Of a DNA stretch of 59,908 nucleotides, positions 1,504-58,084 are shown in pieces. The stretch's first letter is position 1, and each line of letters starts with the position of its first letter. The stretch covers positions 1 through 59,908 of IMG/VR virus record IMGVR_UViG_3300033141_003139; one strand, 5' to 3'. Both the position numbers and the translations under genes were made by a program. The DNA comes from a virus (taxonomy: Duplodnaviria; Caudoviricetes). The notes below the pieces were generated by a model. The model had not been told where the DNA came from. It ran no database searches and worked only from the letters and a program-made list of their open reading frames with translations.

Positions 1504-1887
1504 ATGCCTGGGCGTGATCCTGAAGTAATTTACATAAATCATCGGGGTTTCTTCCAACGCACGTTCAAGTTAGAAGGTGTTGCCCAGGATATGTCTGCCT
1601 ATACGGATGCTTCTAACAATATTACATTCGAGTTTTATGAAGAAGGGCAGACTGTCCTGTATTCTTTCAACAACTATAGTGATGCTTCTAACTTTGATGA
1701 TAGCAACCTATCTACAGGGGTCATAGTATTCAAGTACACCGAAGAGACTTTCGATGAAGCGACCATATTTGGGACATCTGATGACGTGAGTCGTCGCTAC
1801 CGTTGCAGAGTAATTCAGATAGACAGCACTTACCCCAGTCCAGGAAGAGTAAACCCTGAAACATTCGAGGTGGAGTTTAGACGCTAA
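1504..1887 (+). CDS. Hypothetical beta-rich virion accessory protein
   Basis: AGGAG RBS; acidic, beta-strand pattern; lies in the structural region. Confidence 0.65.
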   Translation: MPGRDPEVIYINHRGFFQRTFKLEGVAQDMSAYTDASNNITFEFYEEGQTVLYSFNNYSDASNFDDSNLSTGVIVFKYTEETFDEATIFGTSDDVSRRYRCRVIQIDSTYPSPGRVNPETFEVEFRR

Positions 1888-3743
1888 TGATTTACAAGGA
1901 ACAACAGGATATATTTGTAGATGCCATGGTGCATCAGTATGAACTAGCATCTGGTTCTTTGCAGGCGTTATTCCTGATACCTAAGTTGATAGGTAAAGTA
2001 CGTCATGAAGAAGACATTAAAAGGATAGACAGGCTTGAGCGTATTCTTATGAGTAGGTATAAGCCACGCAAGAAACGAAAGCGATCTAAAAAGTACATGC
2101 TGCAATATGGGTGGTTCGACTGGTTGCTTAGAGAAAAAACGCCTGAAGAATTGAGGCAGCGAAAACTAGCTAAACGCAAGAAAATTCTAATGGAGAAGTT
2201 TGGCCCTCACCTCGCAGCCGAGCAAGACTGGATAGCGGCTTCAACTGCAAGAAGGTTGTCACCGTTGGCGGAAGAAGCCAGCAAGGCTGAAGCGGTTACT
2301 CGTGTAGTAGACAGGCCACAAACTCCTTTCAGGGTTGCCCTGCGTGAACAACGCCTCAAGCGCGCTGAGGCAGGTTTCCCTGAAGTTGGCAGGCCAGTAA
2401 GGGTTGCTACCAGAAAACAGCGTGCTGAATGGGAGAAAGACCCTAGAAGAACTATAACACCCAAGCGGAAACTCGGTGAAAGCATCCAGTTGAAGCTAGA
2501 ACAATTTCTCAGGAAGAACCGTCTTTACGGCAAAAGCCCAAGTGAGATTAAAGCCCAGTTGAACAGAATGAGCTTTGATACAGTCGTACGAGGTTACAAA
2601 CTGTTTAAGATTTTAGCTGCAAAAGGAGCTAAGTCAGTAGGCGGGTCTATAATAGAAGGATGGCTCCAGGCTTTCAAAGAAAATCTCTGGGAAAAAGAGC
2701 AACGCACCCTTTTTGCTAATAACAGTAACGTCGTTCGTTATGCTGACGAAAACTTGTTTACTGAGTTGCTTCGTGCAATTGCGATGAGTGCAAGGAATGC
2801 TAAAACTGAAGTACTGGAAAAAACATTAGCCAAGGCTCATCGTATGGCCATGCGAGTCCGTGAGATTGCTCTTAAGAATATGTTCATGTTCTGGGCTGGA
2901 TTGATAGCAGGAGAGCTGATGCATCGTGCTGCAAGCAAGCAAATGGTAAACGTGGTAACGCCTGAAGGCAAGAACCTGTCACGTGAAAGACGAATGATGT
3001 ATGCTGGTCCGTTCCTGACAATGGCCAGTAGTATTATTGCAAGGTTATTTCCAAAGGCTGTAGCTAAAAAGGCATTGTGGAGTAAGGCTATATCCAGTGG
3101 AAGAGCCGCAAGTGTTACCAGGGCAGCAAAGACAGCCCAGGTTCGTGGCGTTGCAAGGGCGGCTCTCAGGGAGACCAAGCAGAAAGGTATTCGTGGTGTC
3201 AAAACAGGAATAGCAACAGCTGGGGAGGTAGTAAGACCTCATTGGAAAACGTTCAAGTGGACTCATCCTCATGCTGGGGCTATACTGACGAAAGGTGGAC
3301 GGGCTGGGCGCTTCATAGTCAAACATCCTTTTGCTACGTGGATTGGAGCCGAAGTTGGTCTTCAAGCTCTCCGCAAGAAAAAACAACGTCAATTGGAAGA
3401 TCAGTATTACCCACGGTACGACTTGCAAAGGGAAGCCTTCAAAAGGTATGCCTTTTATGCACCACTTACGTCATGGCTGAAGAAAGCAAAGAAAGCGTAC
3501 GAAGGTTTCATAATGAAAGGTTCCGTTGGCAGGGGGTTGGTAACCGCTACACGAGGCGTTGGTATGATTGGACGTGGTGCCGTGAAAACCGTAGGTGGAG
3601 CAATGAAAGCAACGTCTCGTACTATGACACCTAAAGGCAAGATACTAGCAGGGGGCTTAATGGTAGGCGGATATGCCTGGGGCAAACGAAAGGGACGACA
3701 GCAAGGTCCCCGTCGGCCTTTTTTCAGGGGGCATTTACGATGA
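1887..3743 (+). CDS. Highly basic modular protein, putative internal head polyprotein
   Basis: 618 aa, K/R/A/G-rich, translationally coupled; segments separated by xxQY/xxRY motifs. Confidence 0.7.
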   Translation: MIYKEQQDIFVDAMVHQYELASGSLQALFLIPKLIGKVRHEEDIKRIDRLERILMSRYKPRKKRKRSKKYMLQYGWFDWLLREKTPEELRQRKLAKRKKILMEKFGPHLAAEQDWIAASTARRLSPLAEEASKAEAVTRVVDRPQTPFRVALREQRLKRAEAGFPEVGRPVRVATRKQRAEWEKDPRRTITPKRKLGESIQLKLEQFLRKNRLYGKSPSEIKAQLNRMSFDTVVRGYKLFKILAAKGAKSVGGSIIEGWLQAFKENLWEKEQRTLFANNSNVVRYADENLFTELLRAIAMSARNAKTEVLEKTLAKAHRMAMRVREIALKNMFMFWAGLIAGELMHRAASKQMVNVVTPEGKNLSRERRMMYAGPFLTMASSIIARLFPKAVAKKALWSKAISSGRAASVTRAAKTAQVRGVARAALRETKQKGIRGVKTGIATAGEVVRPHWKTFKWTHPHAGAILTKGGRAGRFIVKHPFATWIGAEVGLQALRKKKQRQLEDQYYPRYDLQREAFKRYAFYAPLTSWLKKAKKAYEGFIMKGSVGRGLVTATRGVGMIGRGAVKTVGGAMKATSRTMTPKGKILAGGLMVGGYAWGKRKGRQQGPRRPFFRGHLR

Positions 3744-5518
3744 GTAATTTCAATCGTGCTGGCAACTTAGTCCTAAAATATGCCGTTCAGCGACAGAGTC
3801 TTATCAACCGGCTATTGGATCTGGCGTCTTCGATTAAGCATGGTATGGGAGCGGGTAAGGCAGTAGAAATACTAAGGTCTCCACTTGGAGCTAAGTTAGC
3901 CGCTGGTGTAGCAGGGGGAGCGGTAGGCATATCTTTAGGTAAAGCATTACAGCGTATAGAAGACGAAGAGGAAGCAATAAGAGAAAAGGAACGTGCTCGA
4001 ATACTTGCTGCTGTCAACATGCTTGAGTCATTAAATGCTCCTGTTGATTATATGACGATCGATACGATTGTCAGGTATGAAGGATGGAGAGAAGAACTTG
4101 CTAAGCGGACTCCTGAGTCGTTGTTAGCTGCATGGAATAAGTTCCGCGAAGAAACCGCTCGTACCACGGACGTGCCCAGGCAGGTTAGCGAAGCTCGAAA
4201 AAGCGTTGGTCAGGCTCTTTTGGATACTCTGGCTGCTCATGGATACATACCAGATAAAGAAGGCAGAATGAGACTATCCGAGGCTAAGCCAAAGGGAGTA
4301 GCATTTCCTGCTCCTCCGCCTGGGATGCGTATAAAAGCCGCAGAGGAACATATTACCAGTACATCGCATATCCCAATGGGCGAAGCCAGGTCCATAGAAG
4401 GCATGGAGGTAGGCGGAAAAATAGTTGTGCACCCAGCGAAGTTGACGGCCCCAAGATACGTAGCAAAGCCCAGGTATGACCTGGATGCCTTATCAAGGAT
4501 CCAGATGGAGAGAGCTGCGAAGGGCACATCTGTTACTGGTCTAGGTGCAGTTAGAAAAAGAATCGGTGAAATACATGAAGCAACCAGGGGTGGTCGTGAA
4601 ACACCACTCATGAAGTCTGTACTCAGTAAAACAATAGATGCTGCTGAGCATGCTCGCATCCAGAAGAAGCTCGCTACAAAAGGTTTTCGCTCGTTGACTG
4701 GTGTTGAAAAGCGAACTATTGGACGGCTTCTTACCAAAAGGGCAAAGCGTTGGGGTCTTCGTTTCAATGAACAAGCTCCTACCCAGCAGTACGCTTTTGA
4801 ACGCACCAAGCGAGCATGGCGTAAGGCCAAGAGAAAAGTAAAAGGAGCTTGGCGAACAGGGACAGCGTGGGGACGTAGGTTAGCCAGAAGGATTTCTTCT
4901 GCTGCCAGGGTTGCTACTGCTCAAAGTATGGTTACTGCACCAGGTGTTGCGTGGCAGGAAACAGGACGTTTCTTGGAACGTGAGGCTTCAGCAAGAATTC
5001 CTGCCCTGAGCGAATCCCATCCAAGGCTGGCTGCAATAGCTGCAATGGGTGTCAGGCAGGCGGCTGTTACAAGTAGGAGGCCTACCAGCGTTGATCCTCG
5101 ATTTAGAGAATATACCACGGAAGAACTACTAGTAGAAGCATCTGGTCTCAGCGGGGATTTGCGAAAGCTATTGAATGATTTTGCGAGTAACAAGGCTACA
5201 CAAAGTGGTTTTGAAAGCAAACTTCACAACGCAATAACTGAGAGCGAGCGAGCAGGGATACTCAATGAAAAGAAAAAGGTTGATACGACCAGGGGGCTTC
5301 TCAAGGAAGACATACTGTTTACTCGTAACAGGTTACGGGATATACGAGATGAACTAAGGTCACGTGGTACTCGTGTACCCAACGATATTAACGCTGTATA
5401 TGCTGAAGCCATATCTCTTGCCGAAGTACCACCATCACCAAGGCGACCAGTAAGACCTGCTCCTACCCTGGAAAAGCAATTGATAACAGAATTACTTGGT
5501 AACAGGTACTACAGATGA
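3740..5518 (+). CDS. Highly basic modular protein, putative internal head polyprotein
   Basis: 592 aa; ATGA overlap; Gly-zipper helix AAGVAGGAVGISLG; VLKY, IVRY and QQY motifs. Confidence 0.7.
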   Translation: MSNFNRAGNLVLKYAVQRQSLINRLLDLASSIKHGMGAGKAVEILRSPLGAKLAAGVAGGAVGISLGKALQRIEDEEEAIREKERARILAAVNMLESLNAPVDYMTIDTIVRYEGWREELAKRTPESLLAAWNKFREETARTTDVPRQVSEARKSVGQALLDTLAAHGYIPDKEGRMRLSEAKPKGVAFPAPPPGMRIKAAEEHITSTSHIPMGEARSIEGMEVGGKIVVHPAKLTAPRYVAKPRYDLDALSRIQMERAAKGTSVTGLGAVRKRIGEIHEATRGGRETPLMKSVLSKTIDAAEHARIQKKLATKGFRSLTGVEKRTIGRLLTKRAKRWGLRFNEQAPTQQYAFERTKRAWRKAKRKVKGAWRTGTAWGRRLARRISSAARVATAQSMVTAPGVAWQETGRFLEREASARIPALSESHPRLAAIAAMGVRQAAVTSRRPTSVDPRFREYTTEELLVEASGLSGDLRKLLNDFASNKATQSGFESKLHNAITESERAGILNEKKKVDTTRGLLKEDILFTRNRLRDIRDELRSRGTRVPNDINAVYAEAISLAEVPPSPRRPVRPAPTLEKQLITELLGNRYYR

Positions 5519-6372
5519 AGTTAGAACTCGTATGGAGTTATCTGGGACGGAACTGGGACTCACCAGTGAAGCGTTACTTGATAAGAGAATGGCAGGAAGC
5601 ATACGCCCGCCCCAGCATGGGTAAGACCAAGAGTAAGCAATCCTGGTGGCAACGTATGAAGGGCCGTGTTAAGTGGTACAAGAGAGAAAAGGCCCGTGCT
5701 CGTATTAAAGAAATACGTCGCCAGCTTGGCAACCTGAAAACAGCAGGACTCAGAGCTATCAATCGTGCTTACAACGAGATAGTCGCCATTGGGATAGAGA
5801 CTAAGGATCGTACCATCCAACGTGAAATTGCCCGTCATAAACGAGAGCTTAAAGCAGCTGGTCAAAGGATTGTCCTGGAAGGTAAACATATAGACTGGGA
5901 AAAATCTCATGAGTCCAAACTCAAAGGAAGAAATCTTGCACGGGTTGCCGAGATATTACATCGTATGGGCGAGTCTGAAGCCAAGGCTAGGCCTGCCCCC
6001 AGGGCCATCATAGGAGGAGTCGAGACAGGACTTTTCGGTCCTGAGATCAAACGAACTGTTTCCCAGTCGCATAGGCTGGCTGCAAAAGGAATGCAACTGA
6101 AAGATTTAGCCGAGGAACTTACGAAATCTCCTGAAAGTACATTACCACAACATCACCCTGCATACGTAAGGGTACCTGGAGCAAAAGGGCCAGCAGGAAT
6201 GAGTACACATGACCTCAGAGAATTAACGGGCATAGGTGTTAGGTCAATCGGCTGGACCAAGCCAGTTGACCCTGCATCTCAAGCATTTCTTGCTCCCTTT
6301 AGAGAAGAGCTTGGTAAAAGAGTGGCCAGGGCTGAACTTGCAATGGAACGGGAGGCTTTAGGACGACAATAA
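5515..6372 (+). CDS. Basic protein, putative internal head protein
   Basis: 285 aa; ATGA overlap; directly upstream of the protease gene. Confidence 0.7.
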   Translation: MKLELVWSYLGRNWDSPVKRYLIREWQEAYARPSMGKTKSKQSWWQRMKGRVKWYKREKARARIKEIRRQLGNLKTAGLRAINRAYNEIVAIGIETKDRTIQREIARHKRELKAAGQRIVLEGKHIDWEKSHESKLKGRNLARVAEILHRMGESEAKARPAPRAIIGGVETGLFGPEIKRTVSQSHRLAAKGMQLKDLAEELTKSPESTLPQHHPAYVRVPGAKGPAGMSTHDLRELTGIGVRSIGWTKPVDPASQAFLAPFREELGKRVARAELAMEREALGRQ

Positions 6373-6440: not shown

Positions 6441-7766
6441 ATGATGGCGAAACTATTTGACTTGTCACGTAGTACAGATGGACGCACTTATACTCTCAGG
6501 AACGTCCCGATCTTCAAAACTCATGATGATCGTGGGTTCAATTGCGATGAGAAGTGGCTCGATGAAGCTATCGAGAACCACAACCTTCGTAAAGCAAAGG
6601 GTTATTTGCCTTCTGTTTTCGTTGGACATACATCTAAGAATGGCGAGGAGAAAGAAGCAATAGGCTTTTTGGATACCCTTTATCGCAAAGGCAAGATAAT
6701 TTATGCGAATATCGCAAAGATACCTGAGACTATAGCACAAAAGTTCAAAGCGAATGCGTTTCCCAATCGTTCGTGCGAGGTACTCCCTAAGAGTAAAAGG
6801 ATCGTCGGCCTTGCGTTCCTGGGAGCCACGCCACCGCATTTTGCTTTACCTTCGATGATATATGAACAGACCGACGAGAAGTCCCATTGGGTTAATTACG
6901 AACAACAGGAGGAAAAACGGATGAGTGGAATTGGTGAAATGTCTCCAGAGCAGTTTGGTGAAATTGTTGCCAACGCAGTGGTTGCAGGTATTGAGAATTA
7001 CAACACCAAGATGGAGAACGAAGAGCAGGAAGAATACCAGAAGTTTGTTGACGGCCTATCCAAGGAAGAGAAAGAAGCGTTCAATTTGAACCCAGAATTG
7101 TTCCTGGAGTTGTACGGTCAGTATGGCCCTGGTGTCGTGGATGTAGATGTTATCCAGCAAACTTCAGGTGGACCGCTCAATGAAGAAGCAGTAGGAGAAG
7201 AGACCAATGTTGACAGGGCCAAGCAAATTGACGTTGGTAACCTGGATGATACCATGATGCGTACCGTCGATGAAAAAGGGGCTGTAAAATCAGCTGGTGC
7301 TCCTGAAGTAGAGCCTGGTACTGCTGTTGCCGAAATGACGCAGATGAAAGAAGACACTGAAACCCTGGCTTATGCTATAAGAGATCTCCAGGAAGAAGTG
7401 GACGTGTTGACGACTGCTAATCGTGCTCTACAAAGTCAGAAAGCTGCCAGTGAAATTAAGGCTTACCTGATGGATTTGAAAGCACGAGGCTATGCCTTGA
7501 ATGAAAAAGACATAGACCATCGTGTTGACATGATGATGAGAATGGATGAAGATCTCCGTAAGGATTACATGAAGGACCTGGAAAGTTCGCTCCCGAAAGT
7601 CCCTACTGGCCGGTTTGATTTTTCAGGTGGTCTTACCAAGGCTCAGCTTGGCGACTCGAATGAACTGGCAGTCAAGTTTGAAGCCAACGAAGAAAAGTAC
7701 AGGGCAGCTGGTGTAACTTGTGCGGATGATCTTAAGTACGTATCCCTTACCGGTGGCGAACTTTAA
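6441..7766 (+). CDS. Mu I-like prohead protease fused to scaffold
   Basis: Motifs VGHT, EAIGFL, NRSCEV, GLAFLGATPP; acidic coiled-coil C-terminal half; precedes capsid genes. Confidence 0.8.
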   Translation: MMAKLFDLSRSTDGRTYTLRNVPIFKTHDDRGFNCDEKWLDEAIENHNLRKAKGYLPSVFVGHTSKNGEEKEAIGFLDTLYRKGKIIYANIAKIPETIAQKFKANAFPNRSCEVLPKSKRIVGLAFLGATPPHFALPSMIYEQTDEKSHWVNYEQQEEKRMSGIGEMSPEQFGEIVANAVVAGIENYNTKMENEEQEEYQKFVDGLSKEEKEAFNLNPELFLELYGQYGPGVVDVDVIQQTSGGPLNEEAVGEETNVDRAKQIDVGNLDDTMMRTVDEKGAVKSAGAPEVEPGTAVAEMTQMKEDTETLAYAIRDLQEEVDVLTTANRALQSQKAASEIKAYLMDLKARGYALNEKDIDHRVDMMMRMDEDLRKDYMKDLESSLPKVPTGRFDFSGGLTKAQLGDSNELAVKFEANEEKYRAAGVTCADDLKYVSLTGGEL

Positions 7767-9225: not shown

Positions 9226-10365
9226 ATGCTAGGTTATGACTTAGGAATTTTCGATGCAGGTGTAAGGTCTACTTTTTGCAAGGAATTCATTGCCAGGGCC
9301 AGGAAAACGGTCTGGCAGGAAATCTGTACTGTAGTGCCTTCGGACAAGAAGACGGAAACGTATAAGATGTTGTCCAGCGTACCAGCGTTGGAACGTCTTA
9401 TGGATGAGGTTACTCTGCATAGTTTCAGCGAGTATGAATATGCATTGACTAATCTCACCTTCAAGACAGGGTTCGAGATTGAGAGGGACGTACTGGAATT
9501 CGACCAGACTGGTCAAACGCACACGTTCCCTGCTCAGCTTGGGTCCCGTTCAGCAAGTCACCCTGATAAGTACATTGCTGCATTGTTGAAGCATGGTGCA
9601 ACTAGTACGATTACTGAGGCTATTCGCAAGGACGGTATCGAGTCTACCAGCGGTTATGATGGTACCACTTTCTTTTCTACCAGTCATGCCCTGGCAGACG
9701 AGTCGCAACCCTCCAGTGGTAACTTGTTGACTGGAACCCTGAGCGCTGATGACTTGACTGCTCTTGGTTCTGTTGATGGAACTCATGGCGGAACTAAACT
9801 TGAGGAATGTTGCGCCCAGTTCACCAACGACTTGAACAATGCTATCGTGGCGATGGCTAATTTCAAGGACTCCCGTGGAGAGCCTTGGCATGAAAGCATC
9901 GAGCCTGAAAGTCTTGTGCTCATCTGTGGGCCTGAAATGGTTATGGTAGCCAGGGCGGTTATCGAAGGCATTACCAATGTATTCGGTGGCGGCGGAACCA
10001 ATCCGATGGTGAAATCGGTTGGTCGTATCATCGTAATGAACAGGGACATCGGCAACCGCACCGGTGATAACCCCAGGTATGGAACATTCTACCTGTGCAA
10101 GGTTGACACACCCGTGCGTCCGTTCCTGCTGCAATCGTTTACGCCGAAGACGATCGACCCGTCTGAATTCCCTGAAGTAGACCCGAACATTCTGACAGCA
10201 TTGGCGGGAACTACGATCGAAAGCAATCTGCCACGTGTCAATGGCCCAATGGACTCCCAGTTCATCTTGACCGAGAAGATTATCTGGGCTGTCCGGCGTA
10301 AGTATGCCATGGGCTATGGTATCTGGCAGAATTGTGTCAAGAGCGTAGGGCTGCCTCTGTCGTAG
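9226..10365 (+). CDS. Mu gpT-like major capsid protein
   Basis: VPSDKKTETY, LTNLTFKTGFEIER, YDGTTFFSTSH and C-terminal RYAMGYGIWQ-type motifs resemble Mu gpT. Confidence 0.85.
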   Translation: MLGYDLGIFDAGVRSTFCKEFIARARKTVWQEICTVVPSDKKTETYKMLSSVPALERLMDEVTLHSFSEYEYALTNLTFKTGFEIERDVLEFDQTGQTHTFPAQLGSRSASHPDKYIAALLKHGATSTITEAIRKDGIESTSGYDGTTFFSTSHALADESQPSSGNLLTGTLSADDLTALGSVDGTHGGTKLEECCAQFTNDLNNAIVAMANFKDSRGEPWHESIEPESLVLICGPEMVMVARAVIEGITNVFGGGGTNPMVKSVGRIIVMNRDIGNRTGDNPRYGTFYLCKVDTPVRPFLLQSFTPKTIDPSEFPEVDPNILTALAGTTIESNLPRVNGPMDSQFILTEKIIWAVRRKYAMGYGIWQNCVKSVGLPLS

Positions 10366-13861: not shown

Positions 13862-14791
13862 ATGCCCAATGGCGATTATACGTATCATATAGGCAGGGGC
13901 TTCGAGGAAATGCGACCTGGCGTATTGTCTGAGGTTGCTGGCATTCCTGGACGAGCCTTGCGCGGAACAGTAGGAGGAGTAGGAACAGGAGTTGTAACAG
14001 GGGCTGTTACTGGCGTATTATTTGGTGGCCCAGCGGGAATGGCTGTTGGGGCTGTTACTGGAGGAGCAGCATTACTGGTAAAGGCTTTCAAAGGCCTTAC
14101 TGAAACAACTCGCAGGTTGACCAGTACCGTCCTGAGATTCTCAAGGACTTTCGAGGATATAAATCCTGTTTTTGCCAGGGTCGCTGCTGACTTGGAACGA
14201 AATGCCGGTCGCATGCGGCGGAGAATAGCCCGCACGCTGGAGCCAACGTTACTGGCACAATCCCGTCTCGCAAAAGAGACTGCGAAGAGTTATGAACGTT
14301 TGGCCACGTTGTACAACAAACTACGAGCTAGAATAGAAGTGCCTGTCCTGGATGCTTTCACTGGTCTGGTCAAACGCATAAACAGGTTGTTCGGTGTTGA
14401 TCAACCGAACGTCAGGAATATAAATTATCTATTCGAGGCAATGCGTAGTATCCAGGGAGCAGTTGCTCGCCGTCATCAACAGCTTGTTGAAACTAATGCT
14501 CCTGGACTAGTAACACCTCGTCCACCGGAAGAAGCTGCCATCCAGGATATTGTTGTACGACGCCGGAGGAACGTTGAACCTAGTTTACCAGTCATGCCGG
14601 CAGAGGTAATACAGAGAAAAGCTACCAGGCGCTTTGAGGGAGGTGCTCCAGGTGGAGTAAACGTTCATGCAGAATTTTACCTGGATGACAGCGAGTTGCA
14701 ACGTAAGATGAGCCAACTGGCAAGGAAAGTCGAAAAAGAGATATGGCTTAATCGTTTTGCCAGCTTGAATGGGAATCTTGTAAGGCCGTAA
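13862..14791 (+). CDS. Putative short tape measure protein
   Basis: Gly-rich hydrophobic stretch (GGVGTGVVTGAVTG..GGPAGMAVG) followed by helical coils; position in the tail module. Confidence 0.5.
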   Translation: MPNGDYTYHIGRGFEEMRPGVLSEVAGIPGRALRGTVGGVGTGVVTGAVTGVLFGGPAGMAVGAVTGGAALLVKAFKGLTETTRRLTSTVLRFSRTFEDINPVFARVAADLERNAGRMRRRIARTLEPTLLAQSRLAKETAKSYERLATLYNKLRARIEVPVLDAFTGLVKRINRLFGVDQPNVRNINYLFEAMRSIQGAVARRHQQLVETNAPGLVTPRPPEEAAIQDIVVRRRRNVEPSLPVMPAEVIQRKATRRFEGGAPGGVNVHAEFYLDDSELQRKMSQLARKVEKEIWLNRFASLNGNLVRP

Positions 14792-20329: not shown

Positions 20330-20497
20330 ATGCCTAAGGGCAAACACCATACTTCGTGGAACGTATGGGTAGAAAACATATTGCTGGTGGGTTCTTTCCT
20401 GCTGGCCGTGGGCACCGCCCTCATAGAATTCGTCACAACTTTCAGGGAAAAAAAGAAGGAGCACCAGGATGACAACAAAACTGAGGCCGAGAACTAG
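20330..20497 (+). CDS. 55-aa single-TM protein (below the ORF-track cutoff)
   Basis: AGGAG RBS; translates as MPKGKHHTSWNVWVENILLVGSFLLAVGTALIEF... Confidence 0.5.
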   Translation: MPKGKHHTSWNVWVENILLVGSFLLAVGTALIEFVTTFREKKKEHQDDNKTEAEN

Positions 20498-20744
20498 AAC
20501 GGTTTACGTCAGCGATGGTTTACACGAGGCCTTCCAGAGACTTGATACATTGGCAGGTAACAAGGGTATCAGTTTCGGAAAAGCAATGGAGTTAGCTCTC
20601 AAAAGAGGCCTCCGAATGAAAGCTCCTGATTTTGCCAAGCGTAAGAAAAAACAGAAAGCAGATAAATCTGCTAAGGCTAAGGCTCGTACCACCAAGGGTC
20701 AAGCTGCTGCAAAAAAGGCTGCTACAAAAATGGTAAGCAAATAA
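20469..20744 (+). CDS. Putative ribbon-helix-helix DNA-binding protein with a Lys/Ala-rich tail
   Basis: RTVYVSDGLHEAF...GISFGKAMELAL resembles an RHH fold; AK-rich C-terminus. Confidence 0.55.
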   Translation: MTTKLRPRTRTVYVSDGLHEAFQRLDTLAGNKGISFGKAMELALKRGLRMKAPDFAKRKKKQKADKSAKAKARTTKGQAAAKKAATKMVSK

Positions 20745-45828: not shown

Positions 45829-46002
45829 ATGAGTTACGTAAGAATAACCCAATGGAATGACTTGAAGGCAAGACTGAACGGCGCGATATACAGTTTCCGT
45901 GAAGACCATCCTGAAATGACCAAGAAACAATTCAGCCGCATGGTATTATTACTGCTTGGGGAATTGCTCCGTGACTACCAGCAAGAACACGATAAAAGTT
46001 AA
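45829..46002 (+). CDS. 57-aa hypothetical protein
   Basis: Open frame overlapping the TerL start. Confidence 0.4.
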   Translation: MSYVRITQWNDLKARLNGAIYSFREDHPEMTKKQFSRMVLLLLGELLRDYQQEHDKS

Positions 46003-47435: not shown

Positions 47436-48875
47436 ATGCCGGTTTTACTACGGACACATGGCGGCGAAGACGGCAAGATGGACCCGCGCACTGCACGTGC
47501 CATGAACATGCGGGTTCTTGAGGAGCGTTATGCTGGGATCGATAGACTATTTTCTACCTACATGATGGGCATTGTTGCTGATCCTGACTTTGCGAAGCGT
47601 AAAGACCCCAGGATTTATCAGCGTATGCTACGTGATCCAGTCATATATTCAGCGCTTCTCGTCAGGCAATTAACTACGGCAGCGTTACCATGGGACGTTG
47701 AGTCCGTTGATGAAAGTGAAGAAGCAAACCAGCTGGCACTTGGTTACAAGCAGCGTCTCTCACAGTGCCGCAGGCTCAGTGAAACGTTTCAGAACATGCT
47801 TGAGGCCATACTCTACGGCTTGTCTGTCATCGAGTTGATGTGGAAATATACTAAGATCGGATACGTCGTAGAAAGAACTTACCCTGTAATGAAGGATCGC
47901 TTTACGTTCACAGTCAACGGGGAGTTGCGCCTTAAAACGCCAAGTTATCCTATCCGTGGAGTATCTCTTCCCTTTGGTAAGTTCATCCCGCATACACATG
48001 ATATACAAGATGCCAGCTTCGACAAGCCGGATGATGCTGGCTATTGTTTTTACGGGATGGGACTGGCAGATCGACTTTACCATATCTTCTACTTCAAGAT
48101 GACAGCGATACGTATGTGGCTGAAGTTTCTTGAAAGGCATGGTTCGCCTTTTAAGATAGCGTATGTACGTGAAGGCGGTACTGCATACGACAGCATGAAA
48201 GAAATCCTACTGGCATTACAGAACGATACCTCGATTGCTATCCCTGGAATGAAAGGCGAAGACGTAGAAATAGAAACAAGCCGGAGCGGTGGTGGTGGAG
48301 CCATGACGTTCGCCGGTTTTGTCAGCGACTATTGTGATGAGTTGATTACACGGGCGATCCTCGGCCAGACGATGGTAACATCAGTACCCAAGGTGGGAAG
48401 CTATGCTTTGGGTCAGGTACAAGAATCGGTCCTCTCTCGTATCGTCAACTTTGATAAGAGCGGTATCGAAGACACATGGAACTATTATCATGTATCGTAC
48501 GACATGAGGTTTAATGTACCTAATGCTCCTGAAGAGTTGTATCCAAAGTTGACGTTCAGGTACAGGGAACCTCTCGACGTTGAGATGTACTTGAGAGTTG
48601 CCGACGGGGTTCGCAGCATGGGCTTACCCATTTCCGAGCAGGACGTTCGTGAAGCTACTGGGTTCCGTACGCCGACGAAAGGCGAAGCGATTATAGCACC
48701 GATAATGCCGGAGCTGATGGGCGAAGGACCTCCAGAAACGTTAGCAAAAGAACCTGATACCAAGGAGGAAAAAGACAAGCAGAATGAAGAGGTTTCCAAG
48801 CGTATGTTGAACTTGCAGAAAGTAATACGTTATGCACTGGAGTCCCAGCATCCCAGAGTACCTGTGTTTAGATGA
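47436..48875 (+). CDS. Portal protein (Mu gp29/DUF935-like)
   Basis: MLEAILYGLSVIEL, WLKFLERHGSP, ITRAILGQTM, GSYALGQV. Confidence 0.9.
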   Translation: MPVLLRTHGGEDGKMDPRTARAMNMRVLEERYAGIDRLFSTYMMGIVADPDFAKRKDPRIYQRMLRDPVIYSALLVRQLTTAALPWDVESVDESEEANQLALGYKQRLSQCRRLSETFQNMLEAILYGLSVIELMWKYTKIGYVVERTYPVMKDRFTFTVNGELRLKTPSYPIRGVSLPFGKFIPHTHDIQDASFDKPDDAGYCFYGMGLADRLYHIFYFKMTAIRMWLKFLERHGSPFKIAYVREGGTAYDSMKEILLALQNDTSIAIPGMKGEDVEIETSRSGGGGAMTFAGFVSDYCDELITRAILGQTMVTSVPKVGSYALGQVQESVLSRIVNFDKSGIEDTWNYYHVSYDMRFNVPNAPEELYPKLTFRYREPLDVEMYLRVADGVRSMGLPISEQDVREATGFRTPTKGEAIIAPIMPELMGEGPPETLAKEPDTKEEKDKQNEEVSKRMLNLQKVIRYALESQHPRVPVFR

Positions 48876-48891
48876 TTACAAGGGAGAAAGT

Positions 48892-50244: not shown

Positions 50245-50896
50245 GCCTAAGCAGATAGACTTCGTATTGTCTACGCTGGAACAGCAAACGCTAAAGCCTG
50301 TTATTTTTGTATGGAATAACGGACAACCAAGACTATTTCCTACTGCTGACTGGGTTGTCCAGTCGAATCAGAACATAGCGTGTGTCGCCAGCTGGATGAT
50401 GCTGACACGAGCGGAAACAGACTATATTGGAACCATTGGGGATGACGTACTTGTATGTGATACCCAGGTACTGGAACATGCCGTTGATTTTCTCAGCAGG
50501 CAGGATGATCCAGATATGATAGTAGGAGCAGCCGGTGTCAGGTTAAAAGCAGGTAAGACCTATGGAGATTCTGATCATATTCATTGTTGTAGTAATTTTG
50601 GCTTTGTCAAGGGAGAAATGGCCGCTCCAGTTGACGTTGTTAAGGGATGGTTCAGTATCATGCGGCGTGATGTATTAGCCAAGGTGCCGCGCATGATAGA
50701 TAGAGGCTTCATCGAAGATGACATTTTTGTGAGCGGGCATGCTGCTCGTGGTGAAAAAGGCAAGCATAGGGTACTGGGAATGTTACGTGGCCGATGCAAA
50801 GATCTTTTTGATACAAGTGATGTTGCTCTTTGTAGTCGAAAAGATCATTTGTTACGTCGGGAATTGGCCCGTCGTAAATATTGTTTTGGTTTGTAG
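50201..50896 (+). CDS. GT-A (GT2-like) glycosyltransferase
   Basis: LNWNRP, VWNNG, GDD, EDDI. Confidence 0.7.
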   Translation: MSKPTLTMAVLNWNRPKQIDFVLSTLEQQTLKPVIFVWNNGQPRLFPTADWVVQSNQNIACVASWMMLTRAETDYIGTIGDDVLVCDTQVLEHAVDFLSRQDDPDMIVGAAGVRLKAGKTYGDSDHIHCCSNFGFVKGEMAAPVDVVKGWFSIMRRDVLAKVPRMIDRGFIEDDIFVSGHAARGEKGKHRVLGMLRGRCKDLFDTSDVALCSRKDHLLRRELARRKYCFGL

Positions 50897-50916
50897 TTGA
50901 AAAAAGGGAGAAGATA

Positions 50917-51796: not shown

Positions 51797-54055
51797 ATGG
51801 AATGGCTGGAACGTTACGCTAAAAGGCCGAAGGTCTTACCGGAGTTGTATCCACCAAGGACCAAGAGAGAAGTACAGCGAGCCACCAAAGCTGTTGAGAG
51901 AATGGGCGGCAAGTCAGCAGCTTGGGCTCTCAAGGTGGGGTTGCCAAGACCAGATGTCTTTGGTGAAGCCAAGCTTCCTGATGTCCCATTTAAACTTCGC
52001 CCAAGGGTGGGGCATGTTCTCAGGCATGGTGTTGGAGTCAGGACGCCTGGGTTGAGGCACTTACAGTGGACAGAGGAATACTTGCCTCCGCTCAAGCTGA
52101 AAGGCCTGAAACGTGGAGTTTTCTTGAAGCTTAGGAGGTTGGTTACTGAGGGGCAGGCGAAAGCTAAGGCTGGCAGCCTTGCTCAGAGAGTGTTAGCTAG
52201 GCTGGCGTTTGGGTTTAGAAGGCCTCTGCCTGAAGATATTCCATTGATGAAGTCGATACGCCGTCAAATGGAGAAGCGTGCTGGATACTCGTTGCAACGA
52301 TATGCAAGACGCCGTGCATTAGTTAAAGTTGTAGCCGCCCTTAAAAGGCAAGGCGTGCGTAGAATAAAAATTGCTAAAGGAAAGCGTCGGGCTGGAGGAT
52401 TTATACCTATAATAGACAAGATAGTGATAACTGATCCTGGTACAATGGACCCAGAATCTATCATCGCTATGAGACCGGTCGTGGGCCATGAACTAACACA
52501 TAGATGGCTTAAGAGAATAGGAGATCCTAGATGGGCAATAGACCCATATTTGGAGCCACCTGAAGAGATTAAAGAAGAAGTAGCCAAGGTTGCTAAGTGG
52601 GGCTGGCCTAAGGTTAATAGATTGAAAGAAGGAAGGTTTAAGCGTTTTTTAGCTAGTGCTTTGCATAGGTTATATCCTTCTAAGGCTGACATAGCGTTTC
52701 ACAAATCTGTTCGCAGGCAAATGCAACGTCGGGCTTTCAAGAAACCCTATTCCATGCTGGATGCTTACAATGAATTGATGCAATATAAGTATGGTAGACC
52801 ACTTCCAAAAGACTTTTATAAACAAAAGCGTTACGTGCGTACACTTGATAAAGAACTAAGACAACACAAGGTGCCACGGCAACAGCGTTTACAATGGTTG
52901 AGTCGTGTGTATGGTGGTAAGGGCGGCCTTATCTCAGAAGAAATTGAGCTTGCACTGAAAGGACGTTACCCAGCAAAGCAAGTCTTTATTATGCCCTACG
53001 TGAAGAAGGCCCCCCGTGAAATGAACGTGCTATTACAAAAGGCTTACAAACGTCGCCGAGAACAGGGCCTTAATCGAACGGCTGCTGCCAGCCAGGCATG
53101 GAGAGAAGTAAAAAAGGCAGGTTGGAAGCGTGATGCATCTGGAAGGTGGACCCATCCACGGAAACCTGCTGTAACGCCGTCGGACATATACCCATTTATA
53201 AGTAACGCTCCGAGTGAGGTCAACAGAATTGTCGAGCATGTATACAGGGACATGCGTCGTCGAGGACATAGCAAGGTAGTAGCCGGTATGCAGGCGTGGC
53301 GCAGCGTAAGAGCACATGGCTATCGTAAGATCAACAACGAGTGGAAGAAGCGGGCGAAACCAGTCGAGACGATTACCAAGCGTGGGTACCCACTATATCC
53401 ACTTGCTTACTCAGATGCTGGATGGCTTGAACACTATGCTACTATAGTAAGTAAGCGTAAGCAAAAAGATTCTAAGCTTAGACGTTTTGGTAGAGGGTAT
53501 CTTGGTATGGCAGTTGGTACTGGAATGGTCACCGTTCCAGCTATGGCTGCTTCTGCTATCTCTGCTGGTAGCCTTAAAAATGTTATTGCCAGCGTGAGAG
53601 GTGGCGGTCCAGTATACCAACCACTTACCCATAGAATCTCGTTGGGGGGTTTTAGATTTAAGTCCAAAGCTCGGAGGCGCGCCTTTCTTGCCCACGAACT
53701 AGGACATAAAAAGGTATTTAGTAAATTAGCTAAGACAGCGAGGGGTAGACTTGCTTGGGAACTTGCTTCTTCTAAAGGTCCAAAAGTTCTTGGGAATATA
53801 GCCATGTTAGGCATGCTGTTTCATCCAAGGCTTAGAGAGCATGCTTGGAAAGCTCCGCTAATAGGTCATGTTCCTGCTCTGGCTCATGAGGCAGCAGCCA
53901 CAGCTATAGCTATTAAAAGGGTTGGACCTAGAGCGTTGGGTACTTTAGCACCAGCATTTATAACACATGCTGCTGAACCTGCTGCTTTGGCTGCGGGGGC
54001 TAAGCTTGCTGCTAAGTGGTCGAGGAAAAAGAAAGCTCGTGGTAAAGATAAATAA
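51797..54055 (+). CDS. Basic polyvalent protein with two HExxH modules and two ChaB-like modules
   Basis: GHELTH and AHELGH..HEAAA; AWREVKKAGWKRDASGRW and AWRSVRAHGYRKINNEW. Confidence 0.7.
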   Translation: MEWLERYAKRPKVLPELYPPRTKREVQRATKAVERMGGKSAAWALKVGLPRPDVFGEAKLPDVPFKLRPRVGHVLRHGVGVRTPGLRHLQWTEEYLPPLKLKGLKRGVFLKLRRLVTEGQAKAKAGSLAQRVLARLAFGFRRPLPEDIPLMKSIRRQMEKRAGYSLQRYARRRALVKVVAALKRQGVRRIKIAKGKRRAGGFIPIIDKIVITDPGTMDPESIIAMRPVVGHELTHRWLKRIGDPRWAIDPYLEPPEEIKEEVAKVAKWGWPKVNRLKEGRFKRFLASALHRLYPSKADIAFHKSVRRQMQRRAFKKPYSMLDAYNELMQYKYGRPLPKDFYKQKRYVRTLDKELRQHKVPRQQRLQWLSRVYGGKGGLISEEIELALKGRYPAKQVFIMPYVKKAPREMNVLLQKAYKRRREQGLNRTAAASQAWREVKKAGWKRDASGRWTHPRKPAVTPSDIYPFISNAPSEVNRIVEHVYRDMRRRGHSKVVAGMQAWRSVRAHGYRKINNEWKKRAKPVETITKRGYPLYPLAYSDAGWLEHYATIVSKRKQKDSKLRRFGRGYLGMAVGTGMVTVPAMAASAISAGSLKNVIASVRGGGPVYQPLTHRISLGGFRFKSKARRRAFLAHELGHKKVFSKLAKTARGRLAWELASSKGPKVLGNIAMLGMLFHPRLREHAWKAPLIGHVPALAHEAAATAIAIKRVGPRALGTLAPAFITHAAEPAALAAGAKLAAKWSRKKKARGKDK

Positions 54056-54100: not shown

Positions 54101-54289
54101 ATGCGACGTTTGCCTGAGAAATGGTTAAAATGCTTGAAGTGTGGCAGGATGATTTTTACTGATAAGAATCATCGCTTTTGTGCCAAGTGTAAAATAAAGA
54201 ATGCTATGCTTAGGAAACATAATAAAGTAACTACGGTCAGGGCTGTAATACCTGAATCCTATAGTGATACTTTTGACGAGGAAGAATAG
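54101..54289 (+). CDS. Small zinc-finger protein
   Basis: CLKC...HRFCAKC. Confidence 0.6.
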   Translation: MRRLPEKWLKCLKCGRMIFTDKNHRFCAKCKIKNAMLRKHNKVTTVRAVIPESYSDTFDEEE

Positions 54290-55158
54290 TGATGTGGCCA
54301 GCCAAGCAAGATTATTTATGGGACAACAGAGTTCTTAGAGGTAAACCTAAGATGAAATACTCACGTGTAGAAGCAATCCTGCAATATCCTCCTCCATCCT
54401 GGAAAGATGAGCCTGCTGAACGTAAACGCCAGTGGGAACATGTCTATCATGCTATGCTGAAGAAAGGCCTTTCCAAAGAACGAGCAGCTAAAGCGGCCAG
54501 CTCAGCAGCAAGTGAGAATTATTCATGGCGTGAAACAGCACAGCTTGCCAAAGCTGCCTGGCATGAGGGCCTTGTCCCTGGCAGCAAAATTCTAGGGGCA
54601 CGGATAAAAAAGGTTTGGGGTAAGAAGCATTTACCATTAAGAACGAGAATAAGAGGTATATGGGCGGCTCCAGCTAGAATACAAAGTAGTGCTGGTCGCG
54701 CTCTCAAGAAAGCCGGCGGGTATCACCAGGCCATGCAGGAAGCCATAAAAGAAAAAAGCCTTTTAGGTGAGGCTATAACTGCTCCTTTGTTTGTTGAAGC
54801 AGAACGAAAAGCCAAGGCTAAAGTAGGAGGGGCTGTAATTGGAAGGGCTGCTCAAGCGGCTATTATAGGCGCTCCTATTATTGCTGCTGGCTCTATGCTG
54901 GGTCGGAAAGTCCCTCCAGCATTCGGTAAAGGTGGTTGGGTTACACGTAAGAAAAAAGTAACACCTCTTGATGAGCTTCGTGACGGACGTGGGAGCGGCA
55001 AAGGTATGCCTGGTGGCTTGCGTCGTAATAGAAATACAAAGGCATGTACGATTGGTGGCCCAGGCTATGGGAAAGGAGCAGGCCGTGGCCTGGGAACAGG
55101 TCGTAAATATACTTTGCTGGGCGATCCTACTCCGATTACTACTTATCAGGAGATATAA
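54289..55158 (+). CDS. Basic modular protein with a ChaB-like segment and Gly-rich tail
   Basis: PAERKRQWEHVYHAMLKKGLSKERAAKAA; GSGKGMPGG..GPGYGKGAGRGLG. Confidence 0.65.
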   Translation: MMWPAKQDYLWDNRVLRGKPKMKYSRVEAILQYPPPSWKDEPAERKRQWEHVYHAMLKKGLSKERAAKAASSAASENYSWRETAQLAKAAWHEGLVPGSKILGARIKKVWGKKHLPLRTRIRGIWAAPARIQSSAGRALKKAGGYHQAMQEAIKEKSLLGEAITAPLFVEAERKAKAKVGGAVIGRAAQAAIIGAPIIAAGSMLGRKVPPAFGKGGWVTRKKKVTPLDELRDGRGSGKGMPGGLRRNRNTKACTIGGPGYGKGAGRGLGTGRKYTLLGDPTPITTYQEI

Positions 55159-58082: not shown

Positions 58083-58084
58083 TC

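What the first reader, a model, noticed from the sequence alone, without database searches (positions are those of the whole stretch)
1887..6372. Basic head-region polyproteins segmented by a Tyr-terminal motif
Seen: three coupled K/R-rich ORFs just upstream of the prohead protease are made of blocks of different character. Block boundaries repeatedly carry hydrophobic-x-[R/Q/K]-Y followed mostly by a small residue: MVHQY, LMSRY, MLQY-G, VVRY-A, RMMY-A, FKRY-A, VLKY-A, IVRY-E, TQQY-A, VKRY, QEAY-A. Several blocks are cationic amphipathic or Gly-zipper helices. Established: T4 gp21 and phiKZ gp175 cleave internal head proteins at short Glu-terminal motifs. Inference: this phage packages polyproteins that its Mu-type protease cuts after Tyr, releasing a set of small basic peptides for DNA condensation, ejection or host takeover. 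I know of no description of a Tyr-specific version.
Basis: partly seen in the sequence, partly recalled or inferred. Interest (0 to 1): 0.85.

Follow-up and report, generated by a model that had tools for sequence, protein, structure and literature searches.

The report
Basic phage cargo proteins, Tyr–Ala junctions
Three very basic, fast-evolving genes next to a phage's head protease look like proteins packed inside the capsid, built from modules joined at tyrosine-alanine sites that may be cut apart; related uncultured phages share the pattern, but no experiment has tested it.

Summary
The three coupled ORFs are real: A 1887-3743, B 3740-5518, C 5515-6372, with net charges +81, +41 and +27. 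They lie just upstream of a protease/scaffold gene in a complete 59.9-kb phage with a Mu-type portal and capsid. Its consensus, hydrophobic-x-[RKQ]-Y, is enriched in A-C (8 observed, 1.95 expected). It fails in relatives (15 vs 15.3; 5 vs 4.06).

The Tyr-Ala dipeptide does replicate: A-C 9 vs 3.8, first relatives 46 vs 27.1, new relatives 15 vs 9.1.

I found seven related phages from metagenomes. Their portal-to-protease interval is filled with one to six very basic ORFs. In these proteins:
- recognisable modules (Zn-ribbon, HExxH, ChaB-like, Gly-zipper helix) are separated by Y|A;
- basic inserts in three scaffold proteins are flanked by Y|A;
- three ORF start Mets align exactly with a junction Tyr in longer homologues;
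- ends of local homology cluster near Tyr only, of 12 residues tested;
- residues 295-434 of A match one such module.

Best reading: capsid-internal cargo polyproteins joined at Tyr|Ala (or Ser), probably cut there, most simply by the prohead protease. Packaging and cleavage are inferred, not shown.

The parts
1887..3743 (+). ORF A, 618 aa, net +81. Only itself found in a full phmmer search. It holds 5 Y|A sites.
   Evidence: AF2 single-sequence model is all-helical at mean pLDDT 44
2769..3188 (+). Residues 295-434 of A. This is the only part of A-C with detectable relatives: a Gly-zipper/hydrophobic-helix module shared with basic proteins of related phages.
   Evidence: profiles built from relatives hit A at 4.8e-8 and 1.2e-5; alignment
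2739..2744 (+). This Y|A lies upstream of the conserved helix module.
3000..3005 (+). It lies where all 6 aligned relatives also have Tyr, within 1-3 alignment columns; the next residue is A, A, A, R, R and S.
3447..3461 (+).
3672..3677 (+). Y596|A597, after a Gly-rich hydrophobic stretch.
3740..5518 (+). ORF B, 592 aa, net +41. No relative found. Y|A sites at residues 14, 351 and 554.
5515..6372 (+). ORF C, 285 aa, net +27. No relative found among clade proteins. Y|A at residue 30, just before a polybasic block.
6441..7766 (+). Protease/scaffold fusion, 441 aa. The protease domain is about residues 1-141. H63, S111 and the domain-final Y141 (6861-6863) are invariant in 4 of 4 clade members.
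   Evidence: phrog_976 at 1.1e-8; phmmer 6e-56 to relatives; alignment A3
51797..54055 (+). Basic 752-aa protein (net +111) in the same head module. It has two HExxH motifs, two ChaB-like repeats and Y|A at residues 7, 169 and 547. This was the protein that led to the relatives.
54289..55158 (+). Basic 289-aa protein (net +35) with a Gly/Ala-rich hydrophobic stretch.
47436..48875 (+). Mu-type portal. It marks the start of the head module. It has a VIRY|A string 13 residues from its C-terminus, which the relatives' portals do not conserve.
   Evidence: Pfam Portal_Mu 2.9e-63
9226..10365 (+). Major capsid protein, Mu gpT family.
   Evidence: Pfam 2.5e-29, phrog_371 1e-34

Best explanation
A, B and C are capsid-internal cargo (internal-head or ejection) proteins of an uncultured phage clade with a Mu-type head. 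They evolve very fast. They are largely helical or unstructured polycations interspersed with Gly-zipper hydrophobic helices.

Like their counterparts in related phages, they are chains of modules joined at a short junction: a basic stretch, then Tyr, then Ala (less often Ser).

Proposed mechanism:
1. The precursors are built into the prohead next to the protease/scaffold.
2. They are cut after the junction Tyr during head maturation, most simply by the phage's own prohead serine protease.
3. The pieces stay with the DNA. Basic parts neutralise DNA charge. Gly-zipper helices are candidates for membrane insertion during ejection.

Shown here: gene position, composition, modularity, the Tyr|Ala junction statistics, and the equivalence of junctions with gene starts.

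Inferred: packaging, cleavage, the enzyme, and the function of the products.
For: (1) Position.
- The window is a whole phage record.
- Seven related phages were found in metagenomes (ten loci, L003-L010, L014, L015). L003 is too short to reach the basic ORFs. Similarities: MCP 7e-77, portal 1e-104, protease 6e-56, TerL 6e-46.
- In 3 of 3 loci that span portal to protease (L007, L010, L014), the interval holds 2-6 basic ORFs, net +30 to +118. In L004 the same series of basic ORFs runs up to the protease, but my gene call found no portal between TerL and the first basic ORF.
- In the 5 loci cut short after the portal (L005, L006, L008, L009, L015), a basic ORF follows the portal directly.

(2) Link to the prohead. 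In 4 of 4 relatives whose protease/scaffold I could read (L004, L007, L010, L014), a basic, Gly-rich hydrophobic block is inserted inside the protease-scaffold or scaffold protein itself.

(3) Junction statistics.
- YA is enriched in A-C (9 vs 3.8, P=0.011) and in two independent sets of relatives (46 vs 27.1; 15 vs 9.07). FA and WA are not enriched.
- At 50 de-duplicated YA sites, K/R is enriched at -1, -3 and -4 (18 vs 10.1 each) and Pro at +3 (8 vs 3.0). This is not seen at 212 Tyr sites not followed by Ala.

(4) Modules.
- L009 and L014 read Zn-ribbon | HExxH module | ... | ChaB-like module | helix module, with Y|A at each divide.
- The ChaB-like module follows a Zn-ribbon, an HExxH block, a hydrophobic block or a gene start in different phages. 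In 7 of the 8 module copies read it is preceded by ...Y|[A/T/K]; in the eighth (L004) a gene start takes that place.

(5) Scaffold inserts flanked by Y|A on both sides: L014 (105 aa), L007 (52 aa), and L004, where eight Y|ALD boundaries delimit seven units of 31-67 aa.

(6) Gene starts. The start Met of L004_13756 aligns with the Tyr of EMY|P in 5 of 5 homologues. P0005 Met1 aligns with L014 Y56|A. An internal Met of L004_9947 aligns with L006 FSY|A. That is 3 of 5 informative starts, at a Tyr frequency of about 3%.

(7) Homology boundaries. Ends of local homology between phages lie near Tyr: starts 55 of 121 vs 34.3 expected (p=5e-5), ends 54 of 115 vs 31.6 (p=6e-6). No such excess was seen for the other 11 residues tested, apart from a weaker one for Pro at starts (1.25x, p=0.005).

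(8) A itself. Residues 295-434 of A match the relatives' helix module. Y372|A lies within 1-3 columns of a Tyr present in 6 of 6 relatives.

(9) Which enzyme. HExxH is absent from all 8 basic ORFs of L007 and L010, which still carry Y|A junctions, whereas the protease is found wherever the region was sequenced (4 of 4 relatives). The protease domain ends in an invariant Tyr in 4 of 4.

(10) Inference from the positive-inside rule. In the L004 array every unit has the same order: acidic linker, hydrophobic helix, RRRRR. This suits separate single-pass peptides better than one multi-pass chain.

(11) Precedent. Prohead proteases remove short N-terminal propeptides and dice internal proteins (passages in PMC10052503 and PMC5694885).
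Against: - There are no data on virion content or cleavage for this phage or any relative.
- The YA excess is modest (about 1.7-fold), so more than half of the YA sites could be chance.
- In the same genome the 752-aa and 289-aa basic proteins have only 3 YA among 35 Tyr. L007 (2 of 28) and L008 (1 of 12) are also at or below expectation.
- B and C have no detectable relatives, so their sites rest on composition and position alone.
- 2 of 5 informative ORF starts do not align with Tyr.
- A conserved LY|A[DN] lies inside the folded protease domain, so YA alone cannot be sufficient.
- The junction residues could simply be conserved ends of modules.
- [LI]-x-E, the T4-type motif, is also mildly enriched (23 vs 15.8 in A-C; 112 vs 91.3 in relatives, partly from one conserved ILE).
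- The window's own protease/scaffold has no basic insert.
- Assignment of the protease to the Mu I family rests on PHROG hits only. Pfam gave nothing at E<=0.1 and hhalign to a Pfam-confirmed Mu-like_Pro region was weak (probability 2.7%).
- The structure models are of low confidence.
Confidence: 0.45

Rival explanations
1. The junctions are cleaved, but by another enzyme. One candidate is the zincin-like HExxH modules carried by the neighbouring basic protein (752 aa in the window), as proposed for polyvalent proteins. The other is a host protease of the Prp kind, which cuts phage head proteins between an aromatic residue and Ala.
For: - The 752-aa protein has two HExxH motifs. Relatives L006, L009, L014 and P0005 also carry them, and the four HExxH modules of L009, L014 and P0005 end in ...KLGY|A.
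- Passages in PMC5512222 propose autoproteolytic processing of packaged polyvalent proteins by their metallopeptidase domains.
- Host Prp cuts 80alpha capsid and scaffold proteins between F and A (passages in PMC5744158).
Against: - No HExxH occurs in any of the 8 basic ORFs of L007 and L010, which still have Y|A junctions.
- Pfam support for a zincin fold is below threshold (SprT-like 0.037, eCIS_core 0.0049).
- No Prp-like gene was seen among the window proteins I scanned. Not all were scanned, and the host is unknown.
Confidence: 0.15
2. The Tyr|Ala junction is real but is not cut. It would be a linker or helix-capping signature at recombination-prone module borders, or a short docking motif for scaffold, portal or capsid. 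The proteins would be packaged and act as whole chains.
For: - Junction residues are conserved together with their flanks (for example ...QY|AS.MP and KLGY|ALEDPKY), as expected for module ends.
- Modular shuffling alone would place homology boundaries near a conserved terminal residue.
- N4 virion RNA polymerase is packaged unprocessed despite a peptidase domain (passage in PMC5512222).
Against: - Gene starts fall exactly on the junction Tyr in three cases.
- The identical charge order of all units in the L004 array fits separate peptides better (inference).
- Inserts inside scaffold proteins must be freed if the scaffold is removed.
Confidence: 0.25
3. Nothing special. A-C are generic basic nucleic-acid-binding or tail-associated proteins, and the Tyr pattern is a by-product of composition, amphipathic helices or nucleotide bias.
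For:
- P0005 alone shows only YA 6 vs 2.7 (P=0.046).
Against: - The YA excess replicates in two independent sets and is absent for FA and WA.
- It is not a DNA-level motif. TATGC stands in frame 0 52 times, frame 1 once and frame 2 25 times. The TAT preference before Ala (78%) matches the general avoidance of C|G at codon junctions (72% before all G-first codons).
- The positional class between portal and protease is conserved across the clade.
Confidence: 0.1

Closest known systems
T4 internal proteins (IPI-III, Alt) with their capsid-targeting sequence, cut by prohead protease gp21
   Same: Basic proteins are built into the prohead core. Short N-terminal leaders and core proteins are cut at a short consensus by the prohead protease (passages in PMC5694885). 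In the window, B (Y14|A), C (Y30|A) and the 752-aa protein (Y7|A) have a junction close to the N-terminus.
   Different: T4 cuts after Glu. Here the recurrent residue is Tyr followed by Ala or Ser. There is no sequence similarity. These proteins are long chains of modules, not small single proteins.
Ejection proteins of phiKZ-like giant phages (SPN3US gp53/gp54 and others), processed by the S80 protease
   Same: Many head-internal proteins with propeptides are cut at several sites of one motif by the prohead protease (passages in PMC10052503 and PMC5694885).
   Different: The motif is A/S/G-x-Glu, the capsids are giant, and the families are unrelated. Those cases have mass-spectrometry evidence; this one has none.
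Polyvalent proteins of phages and conjugative elements (Iyer et al. 2017, PMC5512222)
   Same: These are long multi-module proteins encoded next to head genes. They are thought to be delivered with the DNA and cut into units, and often carry one or more HExxH peptidase modules. The window's 752-aa protein and its relatives fit this picture.
   Different: A, B and C carry no recognisable enzyme domain. Extreme basicity, Gly-zipper helices and a defined Tyr|Ala junction did not appear in the passages I read.
Prp processing of phage 80alpha capsid and scaffold proteins
   Same: Cleavage of head proteins between an aromatic residue and Ala (F|A), removing 13-14 N-terminal residues.
   Different: Prp is a host cysteine protease of Firmicutes with a longer conserved motif. 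It makes single N-terminal cuts, not multiple junctions.
Adenovirus core proteins pVII and pX/mu, cut by the viral protease
   Same: Very basic DNA-condensing proteins made as precursors and trimmed inside the capsid.
   Different: A eukaryotic virus, a cysteine protease and a Gly-rich motif. This is an analogy only.

Membership tests
Prohead-protease-processed internal head / ejection proteins (T4, phiKZ type) | Encoded in the head module beside the protease/scaffold | tested here: met
   A-C end 69 nt before the protease/scaffold gene. The same positional class is present in all loci that reach that region.
Prohead-protease-processed internal head / ejection proteins (T4, phiKZ type) | Present inside the virion | not testable with these tools
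   This is an uncultured phage with no proteome. Indirect only: equivalent basic blocks are inserted into scaffold proteins of 4 relatives.
Prohead-protease-processed internal head / ejection proteins (T4, phiKZ type) | A recurrent short motif at which the protease cuts | tested here: inconclusive
   A recurrent Tyr|Ala/Ser junction exists. Cleavage itself could not be tested.
Prohead-protease-processed internal head / ejection proteins (T4, phiKZ type) | Glu at P1 (L/I-x-E or A/S/G-x-E) | tested here: inconclusive
   A-x-E 13 vs 13.3 and [SAG]-x-E 25 vs 27.7, so no excess. [LI]-x-E 23 vs 15.8 (P=0.034). Homology boundaries are not enriched near Glu.
Polyvalent proteins (Iyer et al. 2017) | Two or more recognisable effector or enzyme domains in one chain | tested here: not met
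   A, B and C have no Pfam family above its cut-off and no PHROG. Only one module of A has relatives, and it has no known function.
Polyvalent proteins (Iyer et al. 2017) | Zincin-like HExxH peptidase module | tested here: not met
   I saw no HExxH on reading A, B and C (sequences). It is present in the neighbouring 752-aa protein and in 4 relatives, with Pfam support below threshold.
Mu I-type prohead protease (Pfam Mu-like_Pro, phrog_976), for gene 6441-7766 | Match to the family profile | tested here: inconclusive
   phrog_976 at 1.1e-8 in the window, and phrog_976 or phrog_3894 in 4 of 4 relatives. No Pfam hit at E<=0.1. hhalign to a Pfam-confirmed Mu-like_Pro region gave probability 2.7%. 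No PDB sequence match.
Mu I-type prohead protease (Pfam Mu-like_Pro, phrog_976), for gene 6441-7766 | Protease fused to a C-terminal scaffold, next to a Mu-type portal and gpT capsid gene | tested here: met
   The C-terminal 130 residues are conserved with relatives' scaffolds. Portal_Mu 2.9e-63 and Mu-like_gpT 2.5e-29.
Mu I-type prohead protease (Pfam Mu-like_Pro, phrog_976), for gene 6441-7766 | Conserved His and Ser usable as a catalytic pair | tested here: inconclusive
   H63 and S111 are invariant in 4 of 4. That they are catalytic is inference.
Tail tape-measure proteins (considered because of length, helicity and hydrophobic segments) | Lies between tail chaperone and distal tail genes; matches a tape-measure profile | tested here: not met
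   The genes lie upstream of protease and capsid, with no PHROG or Pfam tape-measure hit. The ESM Atlas structural row to a tape-measure cluster had TM 0.22.

The most novel reading that the evidence does not exclude
A clade of phages with Mu-type heads loads its capsids with arrays of small cationic peptides. Each peptide would be an acidic linker, a Gly-zipper single-pass helix and an Arg tail ending in Tyr. They are encoded as polyproteins, in one phage as seven units inside the scaffold protein. They would be released by a prohead protease with Tyr at P1, a specificity my literature searches did not find described for this enzyme class. The peptides would both neutralise the packed DNA and act on the host membrane when ejected.
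Probability: 0.3. Interest if true: 0.8.

Novelty: new variant of a known kind. Interest (0 to 1): 0.62.

Why it matters
Internal capsid proteins are known mainly from T4, P22/T7-type and giant phages. How mid-sized phages load and deliver protein cargo is poorly known.

If the reading is right, this clade offers three things:
- a compact and very plastic cargo system, with gene borders and junctions interchangeable;
- a new cleavage rule (Tyr|Ala/Ser) for a herpesvirus-like prohead protease family whose documented specificity, in the papers I read, is Glu at P1;
- a natural source of membrane-active polycationic peptides delivered with DNA.

A junction rule would also let one predict mature products in metagenomic phages. 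Finally, this shows that a protein with no match in 1.84 billion sequences can still be placed by synteny and composition.

Tried and rejected
Direct homology for A-C.
- tblastn of A against 50,697 phage records found no match.
- Word-based searches of A and B found only the query.
- Full phmmer of A against 1.84 billion representatives found only the query.
- B in viral contigs found none.
- There was no blastp hit at 1e-4 from A, B, C or the 289-aa protein to any clade protein.
- A, B and C are not paralogues of each other (best E 0.16).

Finding relatives.
- Single-protein scans with the MCP, protease and TerL in viral contigs gave one distant locus (L002, 27% MCP) or nothing.
- The whole-protein alignment A1 gave nothing.
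- Two genome-contig scans gave nothing.
- Cultured phages share only about 25% identity in MCP and portal.
- The 752-aa protein has no phage-record match.

Structure.
- The AF2 model of A without an alignment had mean pLDDT 44. Its helix ends near 4 of 6 listed Tyr cannot be trusted.
- The ESM Atlas model of B has pLDDT 0.51 and pTM 0.24. The best feature score was 0.78, below the level of a lead.
- AF2 of residues 170-560 of the 752-aa protein with 7 sequences gave pLDDT 52.7. Only the ChaB-like part reached 67-84.
- Foldseek against PDB found nothing at E<=0.001.
- Pfam on alignment A4 found no ChaB. hhalign to the ChaB domain of L002 gave probability 79.6%, E 1.5e-5, so 'ChaB-like' remains tentative.

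Motif ideas dropped.
- An N-terminal leader rule: motif near the N-terminus in 4 of 5 basic proteins of the window against 4 of 78 others. This was post hoc and not clearly repeated in relatives.
- The portal C-terminal VIRY|A, which relatives do not conserve. Its codons overlap the called start of the next ORF.
- A DNA-level cause for the YA excess.

Not run. I did not run complex prediction, because only a 4-sequence alignment of the protease was available and enzyme-substrate pairs seldom pass.

Literature.
- Searches found no description of a Tyr-specific prohead protease or of this clade. This holds only for the library searched.
The cleavage-site tables of the SPN3US papers were not seen.
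- I read passages only (via 'find') of PMC2628397, PMC10052503, PMC5512222, PMC5744158 and PMC5694885.
- Processing of the Mu portal and the adenovirus analogy are recalled, not checked.

Full report
What is in the window.

The window is a complete 59,908-bp phage record with a 114-bp terminal repeat. By my greedy call of + strand ORFs, the genes lie on the + strand. The head module runs as follows:
- large terminase, 45956-47341 (phrog_2, 6.7e-36);
- Mu-type portal, 47436-48875 (Pfam Portal_Mu, 2.9e-63);
- glycosyl- and methyltransferase-like genes;
- a 752-aa protein of net charge +111 and a 289-aa protein of +35;
- lectin-like and beta-helix fibre genes that run across the record ends;
- ORFs A (1887-3743), B (3740-5518) and C (5515-6372);
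- a protease/scaffold fusion, 6441-7766 (phrog_976, 1.1e-8);
- a 388-aa structural protein;
- a Mu gpT-type capsid protein.

A, B and C are translationally coupled through TAATG and ATGA overlaps. They have 18-21% K+R, no Cys, and net charges of +81, +41 and +27. GxxxG and small-xxx-small patterns are in excess. They hit no Pfam family above its cut-off and no PHROG.

All 11 quoted strings are there, chosen from 33 Tyr. Eight of them fit the stated consensus. Within A-C that consensus occurs 8 times against 1.95 in shuffles (P=0.0004). It is not enriched when F, W, L, I, V or M replaces Tyr. Because the motif was defined after looking, I ran an unbiased scan of 1438 residue pairs. V at -3 of Tyr ranks second, YA is at p=0.0045 and RY at p=0.0085. 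That is suggestive, not decisive.

No direct relatives, then relatives by synteny.

A has no relative in a full phmmer search of 1.84 billion representatives. A and B have none in word-based searches or phage records. The neighbouring 752-aa protein has one partial homologue, P0005, of 1052 aa and net +161.

An alignment of the shared ChaB-like region pulled eight metagenome loci. A portal alignment added two more. These ten loci come from seven related phages. Similarities to the window are MCP 7e-77, portal 1e-104, protease 6e-56 and TerL 6e-46.

Their head module reads TerL, portal, one to six very basic ORFs (net +30 to +144), protease/scaffold, two small decoration-like genes, MCP. A-C therefore belong to a conserved positional class, although their sequences are not conserved. 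Only residues 295-434 of A match profiles built from the relatives: a hydrophobic helix module, at 4.8e-8 and 1.2e-5.

In four relatives a basic, Gly-rich hydrophobic block sits inside the protease-scaffold or scaffold protein itself. This ties this kind of sequence to the prohead interior.

Testing the motif on independent sequences.

YA is 46 vs 27.1 (P=0.0003), while FA and WA are below expectation.

Using only five mutually divergent loci, YA is 42 vs 25.2 and YS 24 vs 12.1. YK, YT and YG are depleted. In non-basic proteins YA is 101 vs 86.7.

At 50 de-duplicated YA sites, K/R is enriched at -1, -3 and -4 and Pro at +3. This does not hold at 212 other Tyr sites.

The excess is not a nucleotide artefact. 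TATGC is concentrated in the Tyr-Ala frame. The TAT bias before Ala follows the general avoidance of C|G across codon borders.

Are these junctions?

Splitting the relatives' proteins at Y|A separates recognisable units. In L009 and L014 these are Zn-ribbon, HExxH block(s) ending KLGY, a small block, a ChaB-like block beginning A[LR]E[DN]PKY, and a helix block.

The ChaB-like block follows different neighbours in different phages, each time after ...Y. Basic inserts in scaffold proteins are flanked by Y|A in L014, L007 and L004. In L004 eight Y|ALD boundaries delimit seven units of 31-67 aa. Most units have the order acidic linker, amphipathic stretch, Gly-zipper helix, RRRRR-G-Y.

Three gene starts align exactly with a junction Tyr of longer homologues, one of them in 5 of 5 homologues. 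Two other informative starts do not.

Ends of local homology between phages lie near Tyr: starts 55 of 121 vs 34.3 expected, ends 54 of 115 vs 31.6. This was not seen for W, F, H, M, G, K, R, L, A or E. Pro shows a weaker excess at starts only.

In A, Y372|A lies within 1-3 alignment columns of a Tyr present in all six aligned relatives. Y285|A lies upstream of the same module, as a Y|A does in the relatives, at a variable distance.

Mechanism.

I read A-C as capsid-internal cargo polyproteins whose modules are joined at basic-Tyr|Ala/Ser junctions. That the junctions are cut is inference. It rests on four things:
- the equivalence of gene starts with junctions;
- the scaffold inserts;
- the uniform charge order of the L004 units, which suits separate single-pass peptides;
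- the precedent of prohead proteases dicing core proteins.

The prohead protease is the simplest candidate enzyme. It is present wherever the region was sequenced (4 of 4 relatives). Its domain ends in an invariant Tyr. L007 and L010 keep the junctions without any HExxH module.

HExxH modules, as proposed for polyvalent proteins, or a host enzyme like Prp, which cuts F|A in phage 80alpha, remain possible. Uncut junctions remain a serious rival.

Against the reading.

There is no experimental evidence of any kind. The effect size is modest. Three data sets are at or below expectation: the window's other two basic proteins, L007 and L008. YA also occurs inside a folded domain. [LI]-x-E is mildly enriched too. 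B and C have no relatives. The family assignment of the protease is weak. All structure models are of low confidence.

Novelty.

Protease-processed internal head proteins and polyvalent proteins are known kinds. What is new here is the class of hyper-basic, Gly-zipper-bearing, hypervariable modules, the interchangeability of gene borders and junctions, the peptide array inside a scaffold, and Tyr rather than Glu at the recurrent site. My literature searches found no prior description, within the limits of that library.

Noticed in passing
window 51797-54055: The 752-aa protein (net +111) has a 7-residue leader ending Y|A, a degenerate block and an intact HExxH block each ending ...RRQM.(K/R)R...Y, two ChaB-like repeats, and a hydrophobic C-terminal part with a further HExxH. 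It looks like a polyvalent-type packaged protein.
   Followed up: partly
L004 17443-19509: This scaffold-like protein has eight Y|ALD boundaries delimiting seven units of 31-67 aa, six of them with the order acidic linker, amphipathic stretch, Gly-zipper helix, poly-Arg and Tyr. They precede the conserved scaffold C-terminus. At DNA level only two copies are still 84% alike.
   Followed up: partly
L004 13756-14157; also L005, L007, L010, L014 and P0005: A conserved small module, P[MF]KS.AQRR[WF]...TP.GKKLPE, is preceded by EMY in five proteins and by the start Met in L004. It is absent from the window in all six frames.
   Followed up: partly
window 48832-51792, and 57261-59908 plus 1-1287: Compared with relatives, the window's portal-to-protease interval has extra genes inserted among the basic genes: methyltransferase/PLOD-type and family-2 glycosyltransferase-like genes, a lectin-like protein and a roughly 1050-aa fibre. 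The fibre ORF runs across the ends of the record.
   Followed up: no
window 48831-48836: The called ATG start of the next ORF (48832) lies inside the portal's Tyr466-Ala467 codons (TATGC). The portal's last 14 codons therefore overlap that ORF.
   Followed up: no
L002 5673-7364: A distant relative (27% MCP identity) fuses ChaB (Pfam 3.7e-17) and DUF6582 to a Mu-like_Pro protease/scaffold and has no basic ORFs upstream. ChaB-type domains are thus linked to the prohead in another lineage.
   Followed up: partly
L007, L008, L009, L005, L014, L015 (N-termini of the first basic ORF): A CxxC...CxxC Zn-ribbon of about 45 residues opens the first basic protein in six relatives. In five of them it is followed within about 10-25 residues by Y|A or Y|T; in L015 the next Y|A comes later.
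   Followed up: partly
window 20469-20744 and 13862-14791: There are further basic ORFs outside the head-cargo block: one of 91 aa (28.6% K+R, net +20) and one of 309 aa (net +18) among tail genes.
   Followed up: no
L004 16561-19509: In L004 the protease domain, a 92-aa linker ORF and the scaffold are three separate ORFs, where other clade members have one fusion. This could be a real split, a programmed shift or an assembly error.
   Followed up: no
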